From the IMG/VR virus record IMGVR_UViG_3300033066_000778, positions 89,959-153,958 of that record: a stretch of 64,000 nucleotides of DNA, one strand, 5' to 3'. The position numbers and the translations under genes are program-made. The DNA comes from a virus (taxonomy: Duplodnaviria; Caudoviricetes). A model generated the notes under the pieces. It did not search any database, had not been told where the DNA came from, and saw only the letters and a list, made by a program, of their open reading frames with translations. Shown in pieces: positions 6,654 to 29,430 of the stretch (position 1 is its first letter; each line of letters starts with the position of its first letter).

Positions 6654-8498
6654 TTACATTCTACCCGTCCAAAAGTCGAACACGAAACCTCGTCGAACGT
6701 ATTCGTATGGCATTTTAAAGTAGCCTTTTAATCCCCAATTAGGCCCCCAAGAATTTCGTACTATCAGGAATCCACCGCCTTTATAGTCTTTGGTTTCTTT
6801 ATACCCAGTTACGCAATTATGTACTGCTACCCCATTTGCTACGTAGGAGTTGTCCTCTTCGACTTCAAAGTTATACACTTTTCCTTGGTAGGGTTCTTTA
6901 CTTATACTACTTATTTTAGAAACTAAATAACTATCACTATAAATACTTTTGTGATTAGTTCTTACTTGTTCTAATTCTTCGTTTGTATTATGTAGGTAAA
7001 CCATGTAGTTTGGCCTACAGTTTATAGTTTTTCCTTTTATTATAGTACTCCTTGCTTTTCGTTTGGTCACTGAAAAAAGTAACCGAAGCCTTTTTAGCAT
7101 AAAAAGTAGTTGGTCTTTCAATGACTCCTCTGAAGTTGAGATTGAGACACCCGTTGGTGTTTTGCACCCATCGGTTTGATACCATCCTGCTACAAAGAAC
7201 TTTTGAAAAAAAGTAGGCGCGGTTAATATGCTATATGGAATGTTTTTCTGGTGTGCAACCCCGCAGATCCCACCAACCTTTAGCGCTAACTTAGTGTCGT
7301 AACAAACTAAGTTAATATGCTTATCAAAATTGTCGATACCAACACTGTTTAAGCTATACTTTTTAAGCAGTTCTTTACACCTGTCTATTAGTTCAGGGTA
7401 GTCTTTTCCAAAAGAAAAACGTAATTTCGCACTCTTAACATTACTGTTTTTACTATATCTGACAGCTACATTACCATCACCAACATACATTCCGAGCAAC
7501 TCGAAGAATTCTTTTTCGTATATAACGTCGTCGTCTACTGTAACCTCATCGTATATTGGAGAGTATAGTAAGTTACCATGCCGTAATTCTTCTGCTTTGG
7601 TCCAACCAATATTTTTTTCGAATGAATTAGTTCTTTTTGTTTGTACTAGCTTTGTTTGTACCGAATACTTTTTCGTAAAGATTGGGTGATCTCCAGTGAC
7701 ACATAAGTTTTCACCACAGTTATTTTGTATCGTATAAACTTCTTCGTCTATCTCCCTAGAAGAAAGGGAAAGGACTCGTCTAAACTTTCCGGTGTGCGTT
7801 AATACCTCATCTCCAACTTCTACGTCTTCGATAGGAAGAAATCCATCTTTTGTTGTAATTGTAGTTCCCGGCAAACAACAAAGAGCGTGACCGCCTAAAG
7901 CTTGTTCTGAATTAGCTGGAATTTGAAGTACGCCCTTTTTAGCCATTTCTTGTGATTCCATATAAGGGAAAACTTCCATTCCTATTACTACGGGGTATCC
8001 GTTAGCTATACTATTCTTTAATTCTAGAATGTTTCTTAAAGCAAAGGTAGAAGGAAGTCTATACTTTTTAGCTTCTTCGATTTCTTCTGGTGAAGGAGCA
8101 ACTTTAAAGTCCTTGATTATATAAGGATCTCTTTGTTCCGTACAAGATCCATATTCTTGAATAACTTGCATTCCTACACGAATCGTCATTCCAGAGTCTT
8201 CGTTTATCGTTCCTTCTTGCCTTCGGGCCATATAGTAGTGAAACAACCGACTTAATCTAGTTGCGTCACTATTTGTCTTGAGTAGGAGGAATTCCCTTAA
8301 ACCAGAAACGATAGCATGACTACCACAACTACCCAAAGAAGACTGGTTAGTAATAGGAGAACACTGTGAGCTTAAGTCTACAAACTTAGGAAGTTCTTTA
8401 ATCTGCTTCGTAGCCTGGATCTTGAAGTCAGAAGATACTGTCCTAGAATGAGAAAGGTTGTAAATACCTTTTGTCGGAACTAATTCACTTTTAGGCAT
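6654..8498 (-). CDS. papain-like cysteine peptidase (C1) containing an intein
   Basis: QSSLGSC (catalytic Cys), GGHA (His), RNSWGPNWGLKGYF (Asn). Confidence 0.9.
   Translation of the reverse strand: MPKSELVPTKGIYNLSHSRTVSSDFKIQATKQIKELPKFVDLSSQCSPITNQSSLGSCGSHAIVSGLREFLLLKTNSDATRLSRLFHYYMARRQEGTINEDSGMTIRVGMQVIQEYGSCTEQRDPYIIKDFKVAPSPEEIEEAKKYRLPSTFALRNILELKNSIANGYPVVIGMEVFPYMESQEMAKKGVLQIPANSEQALGGHALCCLPGTTITTKDGFLPIEDVEVGDEVLTHTGKFRRVLSLSSREIDEEVYTIQNNCGENLCVTGDHPIFTKKYSVQTKLVQTKRTNSFEKNIGWTKAEELRHGNLLYSPIYDEVTVDDDVIYEKEFFELLGMYVGDGNVAVRYSKNSNVKSAKLRFSFGKDYPELIDRCKELLKKYSLNSVGIDNFDKHINLVCYDTKLALKVGGICGVAHQKNIPYSILTAPTFFQKFFVAGWYQTDGCKTPTGVSISTSEESLKDQLLFMLKRLRLLFSVTKRKARSTIIKGKTINCRPNYMVYLHNTNEELEQVRTNHKSIYSDSYLVSKISSISKEPYQGKVYNFEVEEDNSYVANGVAVHNCVTGYKETKDYKGGGFLIVRNSWGPNWGLKGYFKMPYEYVRRGFVFDFWTGRM
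6816..7877 (-). mobile_element. intein with LAGLIDADG homing endonuclease (354 aa)
   Basis: CLPGT N-terminus, TGDHP block B, LLGMYVGDG and FVAGWYQTDG, VYNFEV...VHN/C C-terminus. Confidence 0.92.
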
Positions 8499-23617: not shown

Positions 23618-23801
23618 TTGCTAAATACCAAAGTTTAGCACAGGATAGAGAACAAAAGTAATATCTTCTTTTATACACGAAGCCTAAATACCGAGTTTTT
23701 TCTACTATCCAGTACCTGCAACCTTTAGTATCGCAATGATGACAGACAAAACCCCGTCGTAAGGCAATTTTACTGATTCTGGAATAAGTGATATCAGGCA
23801 T
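23610..23801 (-). CDS. Zn-finger array member
   Basis: CHHC...FCSLSCAKLWYL. Confidence 0.72.
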   Translation of the reverse strand: MPDITYSRISKIALRRGFVCHHCDTKGCRYWIVEKTRYLGFVYKRRYYFCSLSCAKLWYLANA

Positions 23802-24066
23802 GACTCAAATAATAGATATTAGCACATTGTTTAGAACAGAAGTATAGTCTACCCGAAGCATCACGTAAATGTCGTAAAGTATCAGGAATCCAGTAATTCT
23901 TAACCAAGGAAGTTTTAACCGTCATCTTAATACTGTAATTACAACCGAACTTGGAGCAGGTTAAACAACTATACTCCCTTACCTTCCCTTTTCGGGGAAC
24001 GCTGTAATGAGTGGTTGTTATCGTTTCGGTTTTATAATCCGTAATCATGTGAAAAGGTCTAGTCAT
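23794..24066 (-). CDS. Zn-finger array member (first gene of the array)
   Basis: CLTC...FCSKQCANIYYL. Confidence 0.72.
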   Translation of the reverse strand: MTRPFHMITDYKTETITTTHYSVPRKGKVREYSCLTCSKFGCNYSIKMTVKTSLVKNYWIPDTLRHLRDASGRLYFCSKQCANIYYLSHA

Positions 24067-24081
24067 CGCTCATAAATATAT

Positions 24082-24118
24082 ACCTGGGATTGTTAGTATT
24101 CCAGGTTTTTTTGTTTTT
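24082..24118 (+). terminator. intrinsic terminator at the strand switch
   Basis: acctggga/ttccaggt hairpin followed by a T-tract. Confidence 0.55.
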
Positions 24119-24237
24119 ATCCTTTTAGCCCCTTGCTGCCCCCGAAGACCCCATACGCCCATTAACCCCTTTAATTACTTTTATATATCGCTTTTTAACT
24201 TGATTTCTAAAAACGACTCGTTAGGGGAAATGACCCG

Positions 24238-24266
24238 TTGACATCTGGGCATAGGGGGTAGCTAAT
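24238..24266 (+). promoter_or_regulatory. putative sigma70-type promoter of the GC-rich block
   Basis: TTGACA-17-GCTAAT; first hairpin begins at 24273. Confidence 0.5.
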
Positions 24267-24272
24267 TCATTG

Positions 24273-24800
24273 TCCCGGCGAACCGGGAGAGCAAGGGGCA
24301 GGTGTAGGTCACGGGCGGTTGAGAGGCCGTCTAGGGCTGACCCTGCCCAACACTGGCTCGCGCCACGATGAGGCGACAATCGTAGGCGCAGGATGTGTGT
24401 GTAAGTAAACCATCCGCCAGAACCCCCTTCCCAACATTGGAGGGGACTCTCTCTTCGCGGAGGTTAACAATCCGCGTAGTGACCCTAGCACAGATAGCGC
24501 CGGTATGGACTCACCGAACACCGTATGGTGAGGAAGTATCGGAGGTGACTAAAGGTAGTGTAAAGGTAGCACCTTACACTAGCGGTTCGTGGGGACTCCG
24601 AAACCCCAAATAACAAAAGGTTTTCTTTTTCAATGTCCTATCACCCGATGGGGCGGTTAAGAACGCAGTGGTTTCAAGACCACAGTGTCATGCGTTCGAC
24701 CATTGGGTGATAGGCTCACTCCAGGTAGCGTAACACAGCGACGCCGTGCGATGGCGGGGGGACATAGACTAGCGACCTATGTCCCCTTTGTTGCGACGGG
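24273..24800 (+). ncRNA. large GC-rich structured RNA / leader of unknown class
   Basis: At least 10 helices, e.g. tcccgg/ccggga, gggcag/ctgccc, ctggc/gccag, ccccttcc/ggagggg, cgcgga/tccgcg, tagtgtaa/ttacacta, cctatcacccgatgg/ccattgggtgatagg, ggggacatag/ctatgtcccc; no credible ORF. Confidence 0.65.
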
Positions 24801-24802
24801 AG

Positions 24803-24860
24803 GATGGGACGAAACAGAGTTCGCCTGTATGGCTTTGAAAAGCCACTGATGAGTCCCGTC
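24803..24860 (+). ncRNA. hammerhead ribozyme, type II
   Basis: GATGGGAC-GAAA-CAG[agttcgc]CTG-TA^-TGGCT[ttgaaa]AGCCA-CTGATGA-GTCCCGTC; complete core; predicted cleavage after A24829 (GUA). Confidence 0.92.
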
Positions 24861-24887
24861 ATCAGACTGAAACGCAAGGAGGTTCCC

Positions 24888-25316
24888 ATGCGGAACCGCG
24901 CTTCCCTCATTGACCTGAACATCCTCGTGTCCTCCATCCCCGTGTCCGCCCCCGAGACCCGGCAGGGCCGGGTCTTCGCCGCCGCCTGGGCGAAGGCGGA
25001 CGCGGCCTGCGTGGCGAGGCTGAAGGCGCGGCGGGCCGAGATCTCCGCCGCGTGGGCGGAGAAGGAGCGGGCTGAGAAGAAGGAGCGGATCGCCGCCATC
25101 CAGGCGGCGAAGGACCGCGCTGAGGCGCGGCGGGCCGAGGCCCGGAAGGTCGGGGCGGCCCGGCTGCTGAAGGCCGAGATGGAGAGGCAGGAGGCACTCG
25201 CCCGCATCGAGGCGGGCGGGCTGCTCGATGCCATGAAGGGCAAGATCTCGGAGCCGGACGGCATCCGGCTCACCAAGGAGTTGGCGGACATGTTCGCCGC
25301 CTTCGGGGAGATCTGA
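24888..25316 (+). CDS. Ala/Arg/Glu-rich helical protein, first gene after the ribozyme
   Basis: AAGGAGG RBS, ATG at 24888 (not 24804); very high GC. Confidence 0.75.
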   Translation: MRNRASLIDLNILVSSIPVSAPETRQGRVFAAAWAKADAACVARLKARRAEISAAWAEKERAEKKERIAAIQAAKDRAEARRAEARKVGAARLLKAEMERQEALARIEAGGLLDAMKGKISEPDGIRLTKELADMFAAFGEI

Positions 25317-25378
25317 TCTCCCCGAACAGCCACCTCACCGTTCGCAAGACCGGAACGATGTCGGTGGTCGAGAAGTAA

Positions 25379-25483
25379 ATGGAATTCATCGAGAGCAATC
25401 TGGTAGAGATTGCTTTCAGTCTGATAACGCTCATCGTGGCCTGTGCGTGCTATGTGGGCACAAAAGAAAATGAAGGAGAGTAA
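25379..25483 (+). CDS. 34-aa single-TM peptide (not in ORF track)
   Basis: MEFIESNLVEIAFSLITLIVACACYVGTKENEGE*. Confidence 0.4.
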   Translation: MEFIESNLVEIAFSLITLIVACACYVGTKENEGE

Positions 25484-25484
25484 C

Positions 25485-26405
25485 ATGAACAAGATGAATT
25501 ACGCGTTCGACGTGGACGCCCTGAACAACATGCCAGAGATCACGCGGATTGGCACCCACAATGGCGTCTTCCATGCGGATGATGCCTTCGCGTGCGCGGT
25601 GCTGACCGCGCTGTGGCCGGATGTGTGGATCATCCGCACCAGGAACCCGAAGGATCTGGCCTCGTGCCAGCTTCGGGTGGATGTCGGTGCGAAGTACAAC
25701 CCGGCGACGGGCGACTTCGACCACCATCAGGGGAAGATCCTACGGGAGAATGGAATCCCATACTCCTCCTTCGGTCTGATCTGGAAGGAGTACGGGTGGC
25801 TCTTCTTCCCTGGCTGCCCTGAAGCCGCGAAGGAAATCGAAGAAGGGCTCGTCTATCAGGTTGACGCCACGGACTGTGGCTTCAGCCTCTTCACCCCTCT
25901 GACTGAGGAGGCGAAGTTCCCATACTCCGTCTCGTCCGTCATCTCCTCCCTGAATCCGGGGTGGAATGAGGGAGGAGACTTCGATGCGAGTTTCGAGCAG
26001 GCTGTGAAGCTCGCCCGTCAGATCCTCTGGAGGGAGATCTCCCGCGCGAAGGGGACGCTGGAGGCCGAAGGGATCGTGAAGGATGCCCTTGCCAAGAGGG
26101 AGGATAAGCGGGTGTTGATACTCCCGCAGTTCTGCCCCTGGCAGGAGGTCGTCTCTTCCGACCCGGATGTCCTCTACGTCCTGTTCCCCTCCGAGACGGG
26201 GGACTGGCGCATCCAGACGGTGCCTGAAGAACCCGGCTCCTTCAAGGCACGGAAGAGCCTCCCGGCTGCGTGGGGTGCGAAGAGGGATATGGATCTCTTC
26301 TTCGCCACAGGGGTGGAGGACGCAATCTTCTGCCACCCAGGATTGTTCATCGCGGGCTGCAAGTCCCGTGAAGGCGTCCTGAAGATGGCCGAGATGGCCC
26401 TGTAA
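25485..26405 (+). CDS. MYG1 (UPF0160) family metal-dependent hydrolase/exonuclease
   Basis: IGTHNGVFHADD, RTRNP, VDVG..Y.....FDHHQ, YSSFGLIW, FCHPGLFIAG. Confidence 0.92.
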   Translation: MNKMNYAFDVDALNNMPEITRIGTHNGVFHADDAFACAVLTALWPDVWIIRTRNPKDLASCQLRVDVGAKYNPATGDFDHHQGKILRENGIPYSSFGLIWKEYGWLFFPGCPEAAKEIEEGLVYQVDATDCGFSLFTPLTEEAKFPYSVSSVISSLNPGWNEGGDFDASFEQAVKLARQILWREISRAKGTLEAEGIVKDALAKREDKRVLILPQFCPWQEVVSSDPDVLYVLFPSETGDWRIQTVPEEPGSFKARKSLPAAWGAKRDMDLFFATGVEDAIFCHPGLFIAGCKSREGVLKMAEMAL

Positions 26406-26488
26406 TCGGAGTGTCTGAGACATTCCACGAATTCAACCGCTGGTTTGACGAACTAGTCAACCAGATCAACAGAAAGAAGGAGTCTAAC

Positions 26489-26929
26489 ATGACGAAGATC
26501 AACACCCCCGCGATCGGCCACGGACCCGTCAGCCGCATCCCGCTCCCGGTCAAGGCCGGTGAGCACGTCGATCTCGATTTCTGGAGGATGCTGGGTGACC
26601 CGGCATTCGAGGGGGTGACCTTCCGGGTCCAGCGTGGGCTTCCGAGCGGATTCGAGGGGCCTGTGGCCGAGGCCCTGAAGGTGATCTACGGGAAGAAGAT
26701 TGACGACACCTTCTTCCTGTCGATCTGGGCGGGTGAGGTGAAGCGGGAAGGAAAGACCCGCAAGAACGTCAACCTGAAGAAGGCTTCGACGGGAACTCCG
26801 ACTGACCTTCCGGGTGTTGGGGCCATCCCTGTTGGGTACGGGGAGCACGACATCAGAATCCTCCTTCGCTGCATGTTGAGCGCGAAGGTTACGAACGACG
26901 ATAAGAAGAACGATCAAGTCAACTTCTAA
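26489..26929 (+). CDS. hypothetical protein, paralog of 27272..27655
   Basis: AAGGAG RBS; VQRGLP...FFLSIW...NF*. Confidence 0.7.
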   Translation: MTKINTPAIGHGPVSRIPLPVKAGEHVDLDFWRMLGDPAFEGVTFRVQRGLPSGFEGPVAEALKVIYGKKIDDTFFLSIWAGEVKREGKTRKNVNLKKASTGTPTDLPGVGAIPVGYGEHDIRILLRCMLSAKVTNDDKKNDQVNF

Positions 26930-26958
26930 CAAACCTTACAAAGAAAAGGAGTATAGAC

Positions 26959-27189
26959 ATGGCCCGTAAGACTGAACAGGAAAAGCGCAATGAAAGGCGG
27001 ATTGCCAAGGTCCAAGAGCGGGTCATCGCGGCCCGTCGTCTCTGGTGGAACAAGGATGAAGAGGCAGGAATCTACAGGGAGAAGGGCTTCGTCGCCTACT
27101 CCCAACAGTTGAAAAGTGAAGCTGAAAAGCTTTACGAGGCTTACCTCGATGAAGAGTCTCGCCTCTATGCCCTGAAGGGGAACAAGTAA
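26959..27189 (+). CDS. hypothetical protein
   Basis: AAGGAG RBS, 76 aa. Confidence 0.7.
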   Translation: MARKTEQEKRNERRIAKVQERVIAARRLWWNKDEEAGIYREKGFVAYSQQLKSEAEKLYEAYLDEESRLYALKGNK

Positions 27190-27193
27190 GGGC

Positions 27194-27208
27194 ATAGGAA
27201 TCGAACCC
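27194..27208 (+). repeat. dispersed ATRGGAATCGAACC motif, copy 1
   Basis: ATAGGAATCGAACCC. Confidence 0.8.
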
Positions 27209-27271
27209 GTATCGTCGTCAGTAACAGCATCAAATAACAAAGTACAAAAAGCAGTCCTTAAGGAGGACAAA

Positions 27272-27655
27272 ATGAACCAGACCAACATCGACACCAACAC
27301 CGCCGAGGGCTTCATCAACAAGCTGACCGCTCAGGGTCAGTACGATTACTTCCGCCTTCACCGCTTCGCCGGTCACAACACCTTCGGGGGAACGCTGATC
27401 AAGGTTCAGCGGGGTGTCCCCGAACAGTACAAGGCCAACTTCCCCGATTGTCAGGACAGGTACTTCCTGTCGATCTGGAAGTACACCGAAGTGGCAGGGA
27501 ACGTCACCCTCACCACGAGACTGTCGAAGGAGACGATGCACTTCGACAAGGACACGGCTGTCCTCATGCTCAAGCTGATGGGCCTGAAGTGGGGAGGCAT
27601 CGTGGCATCGAAGCACAACCCCGTCAACACCCCGAAGGCCAACAACAACTTCTAA
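27272..27655 (+). CDS. hypothetical protein, paralog of 26489..26929
   Basis: AAGGAGG RBS; VQRGVP...YFLSIW...NF*. Confidence 0.75.
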   Translation: MNQTNIDTNTAEGFINKLTAQGQYDYFRLHRFAGHNTFGGTLIKVQRGVPEQYKANFPDCQDRYFLSIWKYTEVAGNVTLTTRLSKETMHFDKDTAVLMLKLMGLKWGGIVASKHNPVNTPKANNNF

Positions 27656-27668
27656 GTAAGTAGTTTAA

Positions 27669-27700
27669 CGGGGCTTAAGGCTGAAAGGTCTTAGGCCCCA
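27669..27700 (+). terminator. hairpin/terminator
   Basis: ggggcttaag/cttaggcccc. Confidence 0.5.
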
Positions 27701-27731
27701 TTATTCCTAACAAAAACTAAAGGAGAATAAA

Positions 27732-28373
27732 ATGAGCCGTTCTTACTCCACCTACAAACGGGATTACGCTTACAAGGTTTCGGACCCTTCGACTCCCGAT
27801 GTGAAGGTTCGGGAATACTTCATCAAGGACAACGAAGAGAAACTGGAACTGTTGGCAAGGAACGAACGGTCTCAGAAGTACAACTACGGGAAACGGGGAT
27901 CGGCAATCATCAAAAGACAGATTGTCGAAGGTGTCTTGAGGAAGACAAAGAACGTTCGGGCTGCTTACCGGGCGTTGATCAAGAAGTCTCCGAAACGTAT
28001 GTGTGCTGAAACAGCATTCGACTGGTTCGGTGTATTGGATATGACCCATTGCACGGAACGAATCGAATGGAGACCGAAGTTCTTTGTGGATGGAGAGAAC
28101 GTTCGTCCTGGTACTGAACTGATCGAGACAGAAGCCCGGAACCCCAAGTGGAAGAGCCTGTGGAATTCCAAACCACCAACACCTGAAGAGGAACTCAAGA
28201 GAAAGAAAAACGATCTCCTCTTGAGTATCAGGGATAACAAGGATTACCTCAGACGGCTCGAATGGAGAAAGGAAACCATCGAGAGGTTCGCCAAGGCAAC
28301 TGTACAGGAAGCAATCGAAAGGACCAACGAAAAGATTGCTGACCTTTACAAGCAACTGAGCAACCTGAAGTAA
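27732..28373 (+). CDS. hypothetical basic protein
   Basis: 213 aa, AAGGAG RBS. Confidence 0.7.
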   Translation: MSRSYSTYKRDYAYKVSDPSTPDVKVREYFIKDNEEKLELLARNERSQKYNYGKRGSAIIKRQIVEGVLRKTKNVRAAYRALIKKSPKRMCAETAFDWFGVLDMTHCTERIEWRPKFFVDGENVRPGTELIETEARNPKWKSLWNSKPPTPEEELKRKKNDLLLSIRDNKDYLRRLEWRKETIERFAKATVQEAIERTNEKIADLYKQLSNLK

Positions 28374-28511
28374 TGGAAATCCAGCACGGTCAGTGCCGAT
28401 GCTGGGATGAGGAATAAAGATGATTGAAAAGTCAATCCTCTGCTTCCTGTGCGTCACAGTATGGATTCTCTTCGTCCGTGACGTCATCAACTTCTACAAG
28501 GAGTACAGGTA

Positions 28512-28868
28512 ATGTTCTTTGATGTCGTTCCCCTCGATGTCATGTATCGCCTTGAAGGGCTCTTTGCCCTTGATGAATACAAGTACGAACTAGATCCAGA
28601 TGAGAAGTATGTTCAACTTGTATGCGATGATGACGTTGCATGGGAGCCCATTGAGTTTCAATACGTAACCCCAAAAGATCAATGGGATATCATGGGGTTA
28701 AGAGAAGCTCAACGGCTCTTTAATGAGCGTGAATACATGAAAGGATTAAGGATAACACAAGACTATGAGGATTACGGGACTGATGGAAACAGATGGTACT
28801 GGCCTGATGATCCACAATTCGATCTTGTAAAGCCAGGTAAGGAAAGAAGGATGCGTAGGTTTAAGTAA
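28512..28868 (+). CDS. hypothetical acidic protein
   Basis: 118 aa. Confidence 0.65.
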   Translation: MFFDVVPLDVMYRLEGLFALDEYKYELDPDEKYVQLVCDDDVAWEPIEFQYVTPKDQWDIMGLREAQRLFNEREYMKGLRITQDYEDYGTDGNRWYWPDDPQFDLVKPGKERRMRRFK

Positions 28869-28886
28869 AGTACGACTAATAGGCGG

Positions 28887-28905
28887 ATGGGAATCGAACC
28901 TTACG
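28887..28905 (+). repeat. dispersed ATRGGAATCGAACC motif, copy 2
   Basis: ATGGGAATCGAACCTTACG. Confidence 0.8.
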
Positions 28906-29430
28906 TATCCTTACATGTGCATAAACAGCTATAGCCCCTATGAAGGGGCTTAAATAGTATACGCACATTAAGAGTGTTTTAACTTTAGTATCTTAGGCTA
29001 ATGATGTTATCACGGCCACATTCCGTCTTAGATCATTATGCTTATTTTACTTTAGTTTTAACTGAACTTTAAGTCATTAAGGATTAAGAGGGGCTTCGGG
29101 GTTAATGAACGCAATGTCAATGTTCCCGATTAGCTCTTTGATCCTAATTACTTTGATTCATCTTCTCTTATGTATAAGTATCTAAGGTTACACATCACGG
29201 ATTAAATAACATTGAACTTTCAAGTAACATGATTACAAACCTATGTCGGCATGCCGACTTAAGGAGGTAATGGATGCATTGGTGTCCATTGGAGACATTG
29301 GCCCTTTCAATGCTCTTTAACCACTTTAATATCATTTGGATGGGCGTAAAGGAGTATATATACGTATTACGGAATAAAATTCTGTAATGACTGTATAGTT
29401 ACAGTCCTTTCGCCTATCAAAACGAATGGA

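What the first reader, a model, noticed from the sequence alone, without database searches (positions are those of the whole stretch)
24273..24800. About 530 nt of densely structured GC-rich RNA of unknown class between a promoter and the ribozyme
Seen: immediately after TTGACA-17-GCTAAT the sequence folds into at least 10 helices in two domains (24273-24607 and 24637-24800) separated by a U-rich linker. A possible long-range CTAGGG(24331)/CCCTAG(24483) pairing exists. There is no credible ORF, and I could not recognise RNase P, tmRNA, SRP or group I/II core motifs. Inference: a discrete large ncRNA whose 3' end is made by the hammerhead, possibly the earliest phage transcript (decoy, scaffold or antitermination RNA).
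Basis: partly seen in the sequence, partly recalled or inferred. Interest (0 to 1): 0.8.

Follow-up and report, generated by a model that had tools for sequence, protein, structure and literature searches.

The report
Conserved structured phage leader RNA with hammerhead
A roughly 530-base non-coding stretch at the start of an uncultured phage's early genes folds into a strongly conserved RNA of no known family, and a classic hammerhead ribozyme sits at its end, placed to cut it off from the first gene's message; what the RNA does is unknown.

Summary
Window 24272-24802 (+) is non-coding and far more structured than shuffled sequence (z = -10.6, against -3.0 on the other strand). It matches no Rfam family.

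One close homologue turned up, L167 on a JGI metagenome contig. Leader plus ribozyme differ at about 5% of positions there, while four-fold degenerate sites of the adjoining ORF1 differ at 34%. Against a fold predicted from the window alone, 13 changes at paired positions break 2 pairs where 10.1 are expected (P = 1.5e-4). Two are double compensatory changes. This is a functional RNA read on the + strand.

The element at 24803-24860 is a canonical type II hammerhead, with the cut after A24829. Its core is invariant in L167, and its fold lies within 1 kcal/mol of the local optimum.

More distant relatives complicate the picture. L162/L165 and L122 keep the same promoter-upstream block and the same jump to GC-rich sequence. 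Each carries a different, unalignable structured leader of 455-690 nt with no terminal hammerhead.

So this is an orphan RNA family with two known members, not a widespread class. Transcription, cleavage and function could not be tested.

Best reading: an early leader RNA released by the ribozyme (confidence 0.45). A cis-acting regulatory leader is the main rival.

The parts
24180..24237 (+). Conserved AT-rich block upstream of the promoter (TTTTATATAT..AAAAACGACTCGTTAGGGGAAATGACC). It is the one stretch shared by all four related contigs.
   Evidence: Alignments A1, A3 and A4. BLASTN against L162 gives 85-88% identity up to 24257, and against L122 75% over 24182-24240.
24238..24266 (+). Promoter-like site: TTGACA, 17-nt spacer, GCTAAT. 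The predicted start is near 24272-24274.
   Evidence: Read from the sequence. Identical in L167. L122 has TTGGCC-17-GCTATA. L162 has no matching -10. The consensus scan does not call it. Function is inferred.
24272..24596 (+). Domain 1: a multi-branched fold closed by GUCCC/GGGAC. It holds a long hairpin at 24296-24348 with a GNRA loop (GAGA; GAAA in L167). It also holds a hairpin at 24456-24476 whose 9-nt loop contains the palindrome GUUAAC.
   Evidence: MFE and RNAalifold folds. Compensatory A-U to C-G change at 24300/24344. G-U to G-C changes at 24313/24332 and 24315/24330.
24347..24501 (+). Invariant core of domain 1: 155 nt with no difference between the window and L167, loops included.
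   Evidence: Alignment A5 and the list of differences. Neutral divergence next door is about 34%.
24597..24636 (+). Linker, A-rich then U-rich (..AAAUAACAAAAGGUUUUCUUUUUCAAUG). It contains a weak hairpin, GAAACC/GGUUUU, followed by a U run. It is the most variable part of the RNA.
   Evidence: Five of the differences from L167 fall here.
24637..24802 (+). Domain 2: a long hairpin (24637-24714) and a branched arm (24719-24802). The closing helix of the arm abuts hammerhead stem II.
   Evidence: Compensatory A-U to G-C change at 24662/24696. Pair-preserving changes at 24648 and 24679.
24757..24787 (+). Hairpin with 11-bp arms. Its 9-nt loop ACTAGCGAC (24768-24776) is exactly reverse-complemented in L167 (GTCGCTAGT).
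   Evidence: Alignment A5. The stem is unchanged.
24803..24860 (+). Type II hammerhead. Stem II: 24803-10/24853-60. GAAA: 24811-14. Stem III: 24814-17/24825-28. Cleavage after A24829. Stem I: 24830-35/24840-45. CUGAUGA: 24846-52.
   Evidence: Sequence. Motif finder. The same design occurs in more than 120 viral contigs. The core is invariant and stem III is improved in L167. The fold is within 1.0 kcal/mol of the local MFE.
24846..24865 (+). Competing hairpin CUGAUGA/UCAUCAG, which sequesters the catalytic core and overlaps the 3' strand of stem II. It may release the mRNA after cleavage.
   Evidence: Local MFE. An AUCAG tail is present in 30 of 148 family members against 0.9 expected. The release role is inferred.
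24876..25316 (+). Shine-Dalgarno AAGGAGG and ORF1 (24888-25316, 142 aa, rich in Arg, Ala and Glu), the first gene after the ribozyme.
   Evidence: The L167 homologue is 84.6% identical in protein and 82.8% in DNA.

Best explanation
Window 24272-24829 is the 5' leader of the phage's rightward early operon. It is a folded, two-domain non-coding RNA of a lineage-restricted family with two known members. A canonical type II hammerhead is built onto the base of its second domain.

Proposed sequence of events:
1. Transcription starts about 7 nt after GCTAAT.
2. The hammerhead folds as it is made and cuts after A24829.
3. This frees an RNA of about 557 nt. Its 5' end is a triphosphate next to a hairpin. 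Its 3' end is the stem III hairpin with a 2',3'-cyclic phosphate.
4. The mRNA is left with a 5'-OH and the stem I hairpin, 58 nt before ORF1.
5. Refolding of the 3' product into the CUGAUGA/UCAUCAG hairpin would break stem II and let the two RNAs part.
6. The freed RNA then most likely acts on its own early in infection, as a protein-binding scaffold or decoy.

Shown here:
- The fold is far stronger than chance.
- It belongs to the + strand.
- There is no coding capacity.
- Sequence and pairing are under purifying selection.
- The hammerhead is canonical and conserved.

Inferred, not shown:
- The start site.
- Cleavage in vivo.
- Stability of the product.
- Action in trans.
For: **Structure**
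- z = -10.6 on +, against -3.0 on -.
- In 300-nt windows the structure excess is confined to 24300-24899.

**Selection**
- L167 differs from the leader plus ribozyme by about 28 events in 593 nt.
- ORF1, which starts 27 nt after the ribozyme, differs at 23 of 68 four-fold sites. That rate is even along its length.
- 155 nt are invariant.
- DNA left of 24180 is scrambled between the two contigs.

**Pairing**
- Against the window-only MFE: 13 changes at paired sites, 11 pairs affected, 2 broken, 10.1 expected (P = 1.5e-4).
- RNAalifold: 0 of 203 pairs broken, 2 double compensatory changes, about 8 G-U/G-C or U-A/U-G swaps.
- Those swaps keep pairing only on the + strand.

**Not coding**
- A 1-nt indel frameshifts both ~70-aa ORFs.

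**Hammerhead**
- All core positions are canonical.
- It is the only such motif in the 154-kb contig.
- Its design matches more than 120 phage contigs.
- The one change in L167 turns an A.C mismatch in stem III into G-C.
- The fold is 1.0 kcal/mol above the local MFE in the window and equals the MFE in L167. The family median is 0.4.

**Precedent**
- The hammerhead of haloviruses HF1/HF2 lies 13 nt before the first ORF of an early operon, and the mapped 5' end of that transcript falls within 3 nt of the cut (PMC3088659).
- L035 shows the same order: promoter cluster, leader of about 430 nt, type II hammerhead, Shine-Dalgarno.
Against: - There are no expression data.
- The -10 hexamer is weak and the consensus scan does not call it.
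- Only two sequences exist. Most helices never vary, so they are neither supported nor refuted.
- This region is mosaic in related phages. Part of the low divergence could therefore come from a recent exchange of the leader segment rather than from selection.
- Related phages have unrelated leaders with no terminal hammerhead (L122, L162), which run straight into the ribosome-binding site. Release by a ribozyme is thus not a general need of this locus.
- Nothing points to a particular trans target. There is no complementarity elsewhere in the phage genome above chance.
Confidence: 0.45

Rival explanations
1. The RNA is a cis-acting regulatory leader. It works on its own transcript or on the transcribing polymerase, in one of three ways: as an attenuator (domain 1 plus the hairpin and U run at 24600-24631), as a mask over the ORF1 ribosome site that cleavage removes, or as a nut/put-like processive antitermination site. 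The Arg-rich ORF1 could be its partner. The hammerhead would then play the part that RNase III plays in the lambda N leader.
For: - It sits between a promoter and the first early gene, as nutL and the RNase III site do in lambda (annotation; the mechanism is from established knowledge).
- A U-rich tract follows domain 1 here, and one also follows the GC-rich part of the L122 leader.
- RNAalifold pairs CUUUUU (24626-31) with the Shine-Dalgarno AAGGAG.
- In L122 and L162 the leaders stay joined to the first gene's ribosome site.
- ORF1's best local match to lambda N is the boxB-binding arginine-rich motif: ARLKARRAEISAAW against TRRRERRAEKQAQW, with the same spacing from RR to W.
- A GNRA-loop hairpin is conserved (GAGA/GAAA).
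Against: - The lambda N match has E = 0.12 for a single comparison, in a protein full of RRAE repeats. Pfam, PHROGs and PDB profile searches give nothing.
- No boxA or boxB was identified.
- The terminator-like hairpin has only 2 G-C pairs, and the scan did not report it.
- The pairing with the Shine-Dalgarno is long-range, full of G-U, and untested.
- 530 nt with 155 invariant bases is far more than known attenuators or nut/put sites need.
- A constitutive ribozyme would cut a tethered antiterminator RNA off the transcript.
Confidence: 0.3
2. The RNA has no function of its own. It is GC-rich spacer at the head of a GC-rich early cassette, and it looks conserved because the segment was recently exchanged between two mosaic phages.
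For: - The whole region 24.2-28 kb is GC-rich here and in relatives.
- Identity with L162 ends abruptly at 24257, which shows cassette exchange at this site.
- Three unrelated leaders occupy the same position.
Against: - z = -10.6 is measured against shuffles that keep dinucleotide content, so composition is already controlled for.
- The equally GC-rich ORF1 region gives z = -0.9.
- The changes that did occur avoid breaking pairs (P = 1.5e-4) and include two double compensatory changes.
- A recent exchange would need one end placed in the 27 nt between the ribozyme and ORF1, because four-fold sites diverge by 31-47% from the first codons of ORF1 onward.
- The L162-type leader also shows a compensatory change against L165.
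Confidence: 0.08
3. The signal is a DNA-level element at the divergent control region, such as a replication origin, a packaging site or an injection signal, or the RNA is a ColE1-like primer. It is not a free non-coding RNA.
For: - It lies at the strand switch, where cumulative GC skew reaches its minimum.
- It sits next to repeated AT-rich units that resemble iterons in L122 and L162.
- The flipped loop between 11-bp inverted repeats is a DNA-level event.
Against: - About 20 G-U pairs, and a helix with 4 G-U pairs in 8, would be C.A mismatches on the other strand. The fold excess is strand-specific.
- Substitutions swap G-U with G-C, which matters only for RNA.
- The element ends in a ribozyme.
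- There is no G-rich skew of the kind that favours R-loops (GC skew +0.03).
Confidence: 0.05

Closest known systems
Type II hammerhead ribozymes in phage and prophage intergenic regions, including the HF1/HF2 halovirus hammerhead before the first early ORF (Perreault et al. 2011, PMC3088659)
   Same: Canonical core, hairpin-closed stems I and III, and an open stem II. It sits just before the ribosome site of the first gene of an early operon, so cleavage trims the leader and sets the mRNA 5' end.
   Different: Here the 5' strand of stem II is continuous with a conserved, structured RNA of about 530 nt. The usual context is a short gap between genes: the median ORF-free stretch upstream was 5.5 nt for the family hits that do not overlap a predicted ORF (crude estimate). 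Rfam's Hammerhead_II model does not score it, nor did it score any hit in the five other family loci tested.
Lambda pL leader (nutL plus the RNase III site before N) and the T7 early leader cut at RNase III site R0.3
   Same: Same order of parts: early promoter, structured untranslated leader, endonucleolytic cut, first early gene. The mechanisms are from established knowledge. The lambda layout was seen.
   Different: The cut is made by the RNA itself, not by host RNase III. The leader is several times longer. No boxA or boxB was found. The resemblance of ORF1 to N is not significant.
Large ornate phage-associated RNAs: ROOL and GOLLD (Weinberg et al. 2017, PMC5737381; Kretsch et al. 2025, PMC12286853)
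   Same: More than 500 nt, multi-branched, phage-borne, function unknown, and conserved in unpaired regions too.
   Different: No match to their covariance models. It is not next to tRNA genes. It lies in a 5' leader and is bounded by a ribozyme. Only two members are known, so an ornate tertiary fold or self-assembly cannot be judged.

Membership tests
Hammerhead ribozyme, type II | Catalytic core C3-U4-G5-A6-N7-G8-A9 and G12-A13-A14, with no insertions | tested here: met
   CUGAUGA at 24846-24852 and GAA at 24811-24813, both flush with the stems. Invariant in L167.
Hammerhead ribozyme, type II | Pairs next to the core (G10.1-C11.1, A15.1-U16.1, N1.1-N2.1) and an NUH cleavage triplet | tested here: met
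   G24853-C24810, A24814-U24828 and U24830-A24845. The triplet is GUA, with H17 = A24829.
Hammerhead ribozyme, type II | Stems I and III closed by loops, stem II open | tested here: met
   Stem I is 6 bp with loop UGAA. Stem III is 4 bp (5 bp in L167). Stem II is 8 bp and joins the leader to the mRNA.
Hammerhead ribozyme, type II | Pseudoknot of 4 or more bp between loop I and the tail 3' of stem II (present in most type II members, PMC3088659) | tested here: inconclusive
   By inspection of the sequence, only a 3-bp UGA/UCA pairing is possible. The tail carries the AUCAG shared by 30 of 148 family members.
Hammerhead ribozyme, type II | Score at or above the Rfam RF02276 gathering threshold (37 bits) | tested here: not met
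   No hit at E <= 10. The model also found no hit in five other loci with canonical pattern-defined members, so it is a weak test for this subgroup.
Hammerhead ribozyme, type II | Self-cleavage activity | not testable with these tools
   Needs an in-vitro cleavage assay or mapping of RNA ends.
Known large or structured RNA families (GOLLD, ROOL, OLE, HEARO, raiA, RNase P, tmRNA, SRP, 6S, group I and II introns, riboswitches) | Match to the family's covariance model | tested here: not met
   All 4227 Rfam models were searched, at gathering scores on the whole window and at E <= 10 on 23800-25300. Nothing was found for 24272-24802 on +. ARAGORN found no tRNA or tmRNA.
Lambda-type nut site with an N antiterminator | A boxA/boxB RNA element and an N protein with an arginine-rich motif | tested here: inconclusive
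   ORF1 residues 43-56 align with the lambda N arginine-rich motif (7 of 14 identical, E = 0.12). There is no family hit, and no boxA or boxB was recognised.
One conserved RNA family shared by the related phages at this locus | Detectable sequence or structural homology among the leaders of the window, L122 and L162 | tested here: not met
   - Shared k-mers are at chance level.
- Local alignment z-scores are 1.4, 0.3 and -0.5.
- The covariance model of 24285-24453 finds nothing in the other leaders.

The most novel reading that the evidence does not exclude
The RNA is a new class of large, complex-folded phage RNA. The phage makes it as a discrete species of about 557 nt, bounded by a promoter and a built-in hammerhead, in the first minutes of infection. 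It acts in trans as an RNA decoy or an RNA-only or RNP assembly against a host factor. The invariant 9-nt loop with the palindrome GUUAAC could drive self-association. The unrelated structured leaders at the same site in sister phages would then be alternative versions, swapped under host pressure.
Probability: 0.2. Interest if true: 0.8.

Novelty: new variant of a known kind. Interest (0 to 1): 0.6.

Why it matters
Few bacterial or phage RNAs over 400 nt with complex folds are known. The ones that have been studied proved to be ribozymes, RNP cores or self-assembling cages. This RNA has clean predicted ends, strong evidence of selection and a defined place in the infection programme, so it can be tested directly.

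The locus also offers a natural comparison. Sister phages keep the same promoter region but carry three unrelated structured leaders, and only one of these ends in a ribozyme. That contrast could show what long early leaders and phage hammerheads are for, a question left open since phage hammerheads were catalogued in 2011.

If the RNA turns out to be only a processed 5' UTR, it is an ordinary variant of leader trimming.

Tried and rejected
**Searches for more copies that found nothing**
- BLASTN of 24200-24900 against GenBank phages.
- Scans of viral contigs with the MYG1 and ORF1 proteins.
- Scans with the promoter-block pattern.
- A shared-motif pattern gave 35 hits, none related.
- A metagenome scan with the ORF1 alignment used low-complexity patterns and confirmed nothing.
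- Exact 23- and 24-mers from the invariant core found nothing in metagenome, viral or genome contigs.
- A look-up of earlier findings of this scan by sequence and by relatives returned only this genome.

**Tested links that failed**
- None of the viral loci fetched for their type II hammerheads has an upstream region similar to this leader.
- The MYG1 homologues P0007 and P0010 are cellular; P0004 and P0007 returned no DNA.
- An apparent shared block between the window and L122 (TGGTTTCAAGACC..GTCATG) is not above shuffles, and its UCAA loop changes in L167.
- The leader has no complementarity to the rest of the phage genome above chance.

**Readings rejected**
- A type III reading of the ribozyme (Rfam Hammerhead_3, 15 bits). 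It needs an inserted U before G12 and has a stem III of only 3 bp.
- A 20-codon ORF at 24648-24710. It shows 3 non-synonymous changes to 1 synonymous, and all four fit the RNA helices (by hand).

**Errors and failures**
- My first energy test of the hammerhead used wrong stem coordinates and should be ignored. One search replaces it.

Full report
**Setting.** The window is the last 64 kb of a 153,958-bp IMG/VR viral contig. The contig is about 40% GC. It carries at least nine tRNA genes and has no close relative among GenBank phages. At about 24.1-24.3 kb, a run of small minus-strand genes meets a plus-strand operon. There GC rises from about 0.36 to 0.53-0.62 and falls back by about 29 kb. 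The first plus-strand genes are ORF1 (24888-25316, 142 aa, rich in Arg, Ala and Glu, no family) and a MYG1-family hydrolase (Pfam E = 9.7e-75).

**The observation.** RNA 24268-24880 (+) folds to -266.6 kcal/mol, against -212.9 +/- 5.1 for dinucleotide shuffles (z = -10.6). The opposite strand gives z = -3.0.
- In 300-nt windows the excess is confined to 24300-24899. The even more GC-rich ORF1 segment gives z = -0.9.
- The fold has two closed domains, 24272-24596 and 24635-24802, joined by a U-rich linker. It has about 20 G-U pairs.
- No Rfam family matches, either at gathering scores or at E <= 10. ARAGORN finds nothing.
- TTGACA-17-GCTAAT is present at 24238-24266, but its -10 hexamer is weak and the consensus scan does not call it.

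**The ribozyme.** The bases read as a canonical type II hammerhead:

| Part | Position |
|---|---|
| Stem II | GAUGGGAC 24803-10 with GUCCCGUC 24853-60 |
| GAAA | 24811-14 |
| Stem III | 24814-17 with 24825-28 |
| Cleavage site | after A24829 (H17) |
| Stem I | 24830-35 with 24840-45, loop UGAA |
| CUGAUGA | 24846-52 |

- A pattern built from its core finds the same design in more than 120 viral contigs, often several per contig.
- It is the only such motif in this phage.
- Its fold lies 1.0 kcal/mol above the local MFE. The family median is 0.4.
- Rfam's Hammerhead_II model misses it. The model also found no hit in the five other family loci I tested, so that failure says little.
- The 15-bit type III reading needs an insertion in the core, and I reject it.
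- Perreault et al. (PMC3088659) described type II hammerheads flanking prophage genes. They also described a halovirus hammerhead 13 nt before the first ORF of an early operon, where the mapped mRNA 5' end lies within 3 nt of the cut. That is the nearest precedent.

**A close homologue.** ORF1 has one relative among 5.8 billion proteins (85% identity), on the 1212-bp JGI contig L167. That contig covers the promoter, the leader, the ribozyme and ORF1.
- Over 24268-24860 it differs by 25 substitutions, 2 single-base indels and one flipped loop.
- ORF1 is 82.8% identical in DNA. 23 of its 68 four-fold sites have changed, at a similar rate in all four quarters of the gene.
- DNA left of 24180 is scrambled between the two contigs.
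- The leader therefore evolves about seven times more slowly than neighbouring neutral sites. 155 nt (24347-24501) are invariant.

**How the changes fall on the fold.** I scored them against a fold predicted from the window alone.
- 13 changes fall at paired sites and affect 11 pairs. Only 2 pairs break, against 10.1 expected when the same changes are placed at random (P = 1.5e-4).
- RNAalifold finds 0 of 203 pairs broken. It finds double compensatory changes at 24300/24344 (A-U to C-G) and 24662/24696 (A-U to G-C), plus about eight G-U/G-C or U-A/U-G swaps.
- A GNRA loop stays GNRA (GAGA to GAAA).
- The indel at about 24502 frameshifts both ~70-aa ORFs.
- In the ribozyme the core is invariant. 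The single change turns an A.C mismatch in stem III into G-C.
Two of its bases instead fit a local helix that gains G-C pairs.
- The 9-nt loop at 24768-24776 is exactly reverse-complemented in L167, between unchanged 11-bp arms.

**More distant relatives.** Three further contigs hold the same locus.
- L122 (MYG1 73% identical) and L162/L163/L164 share the AT-rich block ending in AAAAACGACTCGT..GG.AAATG..TTG and the same jump to GC-rich sequence.
- L162 is 85-88% identical to the window up to 24257, inside the promoter spacer. After that it is unrelated.
- Each carries its own structured non-coding leader. L122 has about 455 nt (z = -5.8). L162 has about 690 nt (z = -6.3 on +, -2.9 on -).
- Neither leader ends in a hammerhead.
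- The three leader types share nothing detectable. K-mers are at chance level, local alignment z-scores are 1.4 or less, and a covariance model of 24285-24453 finds nothing.
- The L162 type also shows a compensatory change when compared with L165.
- L162 and L165 carry sub-threshold Hammerhead_II matches (26 and 30 bits), and L165 a sub-threshold Twister-P5 match (31 bits), between early genes. Ribozyme processing therefore seems common in this group's early operons.
- No further copy of the window-type leader was found in any collection.

**Interpretation.** Three points are firm:
1. The leader is a functional RNA read on the + strand.
2. It belongs to a very small family.
3. It ends in a sound hammerhead.

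The rest is inference. I favour release of a free RNA of about 557 nt (confidence 0.45), for these reasons:
- The ribozyme is built directly onto the closing helix of domain 2.
- Both ends of the product would be protected by hairpins.
- Unpaired bases are conserved as strongly as stems, which suggests specific contacts.
- A constitutive cut argues against a role that needs the leader to stay attached to the mRNA.

After cleavage, the CUGAUGA/UCAUCAG hairpin could displace the 3' strand of stem II and free the mRNA. An AUCAG tail recurs in 30 of 148 family members, against 0.9 expected.

The main rival is a cis-acting leader (0.3): attenuation at the U-rich linker, masking of the ORF1 ribosome site, or a nut-like site with ORF1 as its partner.
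- ORF1's best local match to lambda N is the arginine-rich motif that binds boxB, with identical spacing from RR to W.
- That match has E = 0.12, and no profile search supports it. It is a lead only.

Two minor rivals remain:
- An incidental GC-rich spacer (0.08). The composition-controlled z-score and the substitution pattern argue against it.
- A DNA-level element (0.05). The strand asymmetry and the G-U pairs argue against it.

**Verdict.** This is a new, orphan structured RNA joined to a known kind of ribozyme in a known kind of position. Its interest lies in its size, the strength of selection on it, and the natural comparison with unrelated leaders at the same site.

Noticed in passing
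window 24100-29000; L122:2900-9000; L162:300-4061; L165:1-5000: The jump to GC-rich sequence at the promoter, followed by a decline over about 4-5 kb, recurs in three related contigs although their sequences and gene orders differ. MYG1 is 0.61 GC when 1.2 kb from the promoter (window) and 0.53-0.55 when 2.75 kb away (L122).
   Followed up: partly
window 24257 / L162:397: Identity between the window and L162 (85-88%) stops abruptly inside the spacer between the -35 and -10 hexamers. L167 combines L162-like upstream DNA with the window-type leader. The promoter block therefore looks like a recombination joint for swapping early cassettes.
   Followed up: partly
window 24768-24776: A 9-nt hairpin loop is exactly reverse-complemented in L167 between unchanged 11-bp inverted repeats. 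This points to a DNA-level flip, by template switching or recombination between the arms.
   Followed up: no
L165:689-752, L165:1273-1338, L162:1302-1366: Sub-threshold Rfam matches to Twister-P5 (31.1 bits, cut-off 37.6) and Hammerhead_II (29.9 and 26.4 bits, cut-off 37) lie between early genes of related phages.
   Followed up: no
L123:9137-12372: In a 167-kb phage-like contig, the MYG1 gene is flanked by tRNA genes and followed by a CCA-adding enzyme (PolyA_pol + HD). This suggests phage MYG1 acts in tRNA end repair.
   Followed up: no
L035:6400-7030: An unrelated viral contig shows the same order of parts: three TTGACAGTG promoter-like repeats, a leader of about 430 nt, a type II hammerhead (6944-7011), then AAGGAG. 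The last 300 nt give z = -6.6 on +.
   Followed up: partly
L087:5236-7008: Three type II hammerheads lie within 1.8 kb. Two pass the Rfam cut-off (48.1 and 39.9 bits). A stretch of about 575 nt lies between the second and the third.
   Followed up: no
L011, L015, L016, L037, L047: Rfam's Hammerhead_II model reports no hit at the gathering score in these five loci, although each holds canonical-looking type II hammerheads. The model under-detects this phage subgroup.
   Followed up: partly
window 25014-25055 (ORF1 residues 43-56): ARLKARRAEISAAW aligns with the lambda N boxB-binding motif TRRRERRAEKQAQW, with the same spacing from RR to W. The match is not significant (E = 0.12).
   Followed up: partly
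window 24082-24115: A terminator-like hairpin with a T run lies on the + strand just upstream of the rightward promoter. The stretch that contains it is about 85% identical in L162. Its role at a divergent promoter region is unclear.
   Followed up: no
window 28222-28254: A weak match to the Rfam Ocean-VII RNA (23.6 bits, cut-off 53.5, E = 0.0025) lies inside the early operon.
   Followed up: no
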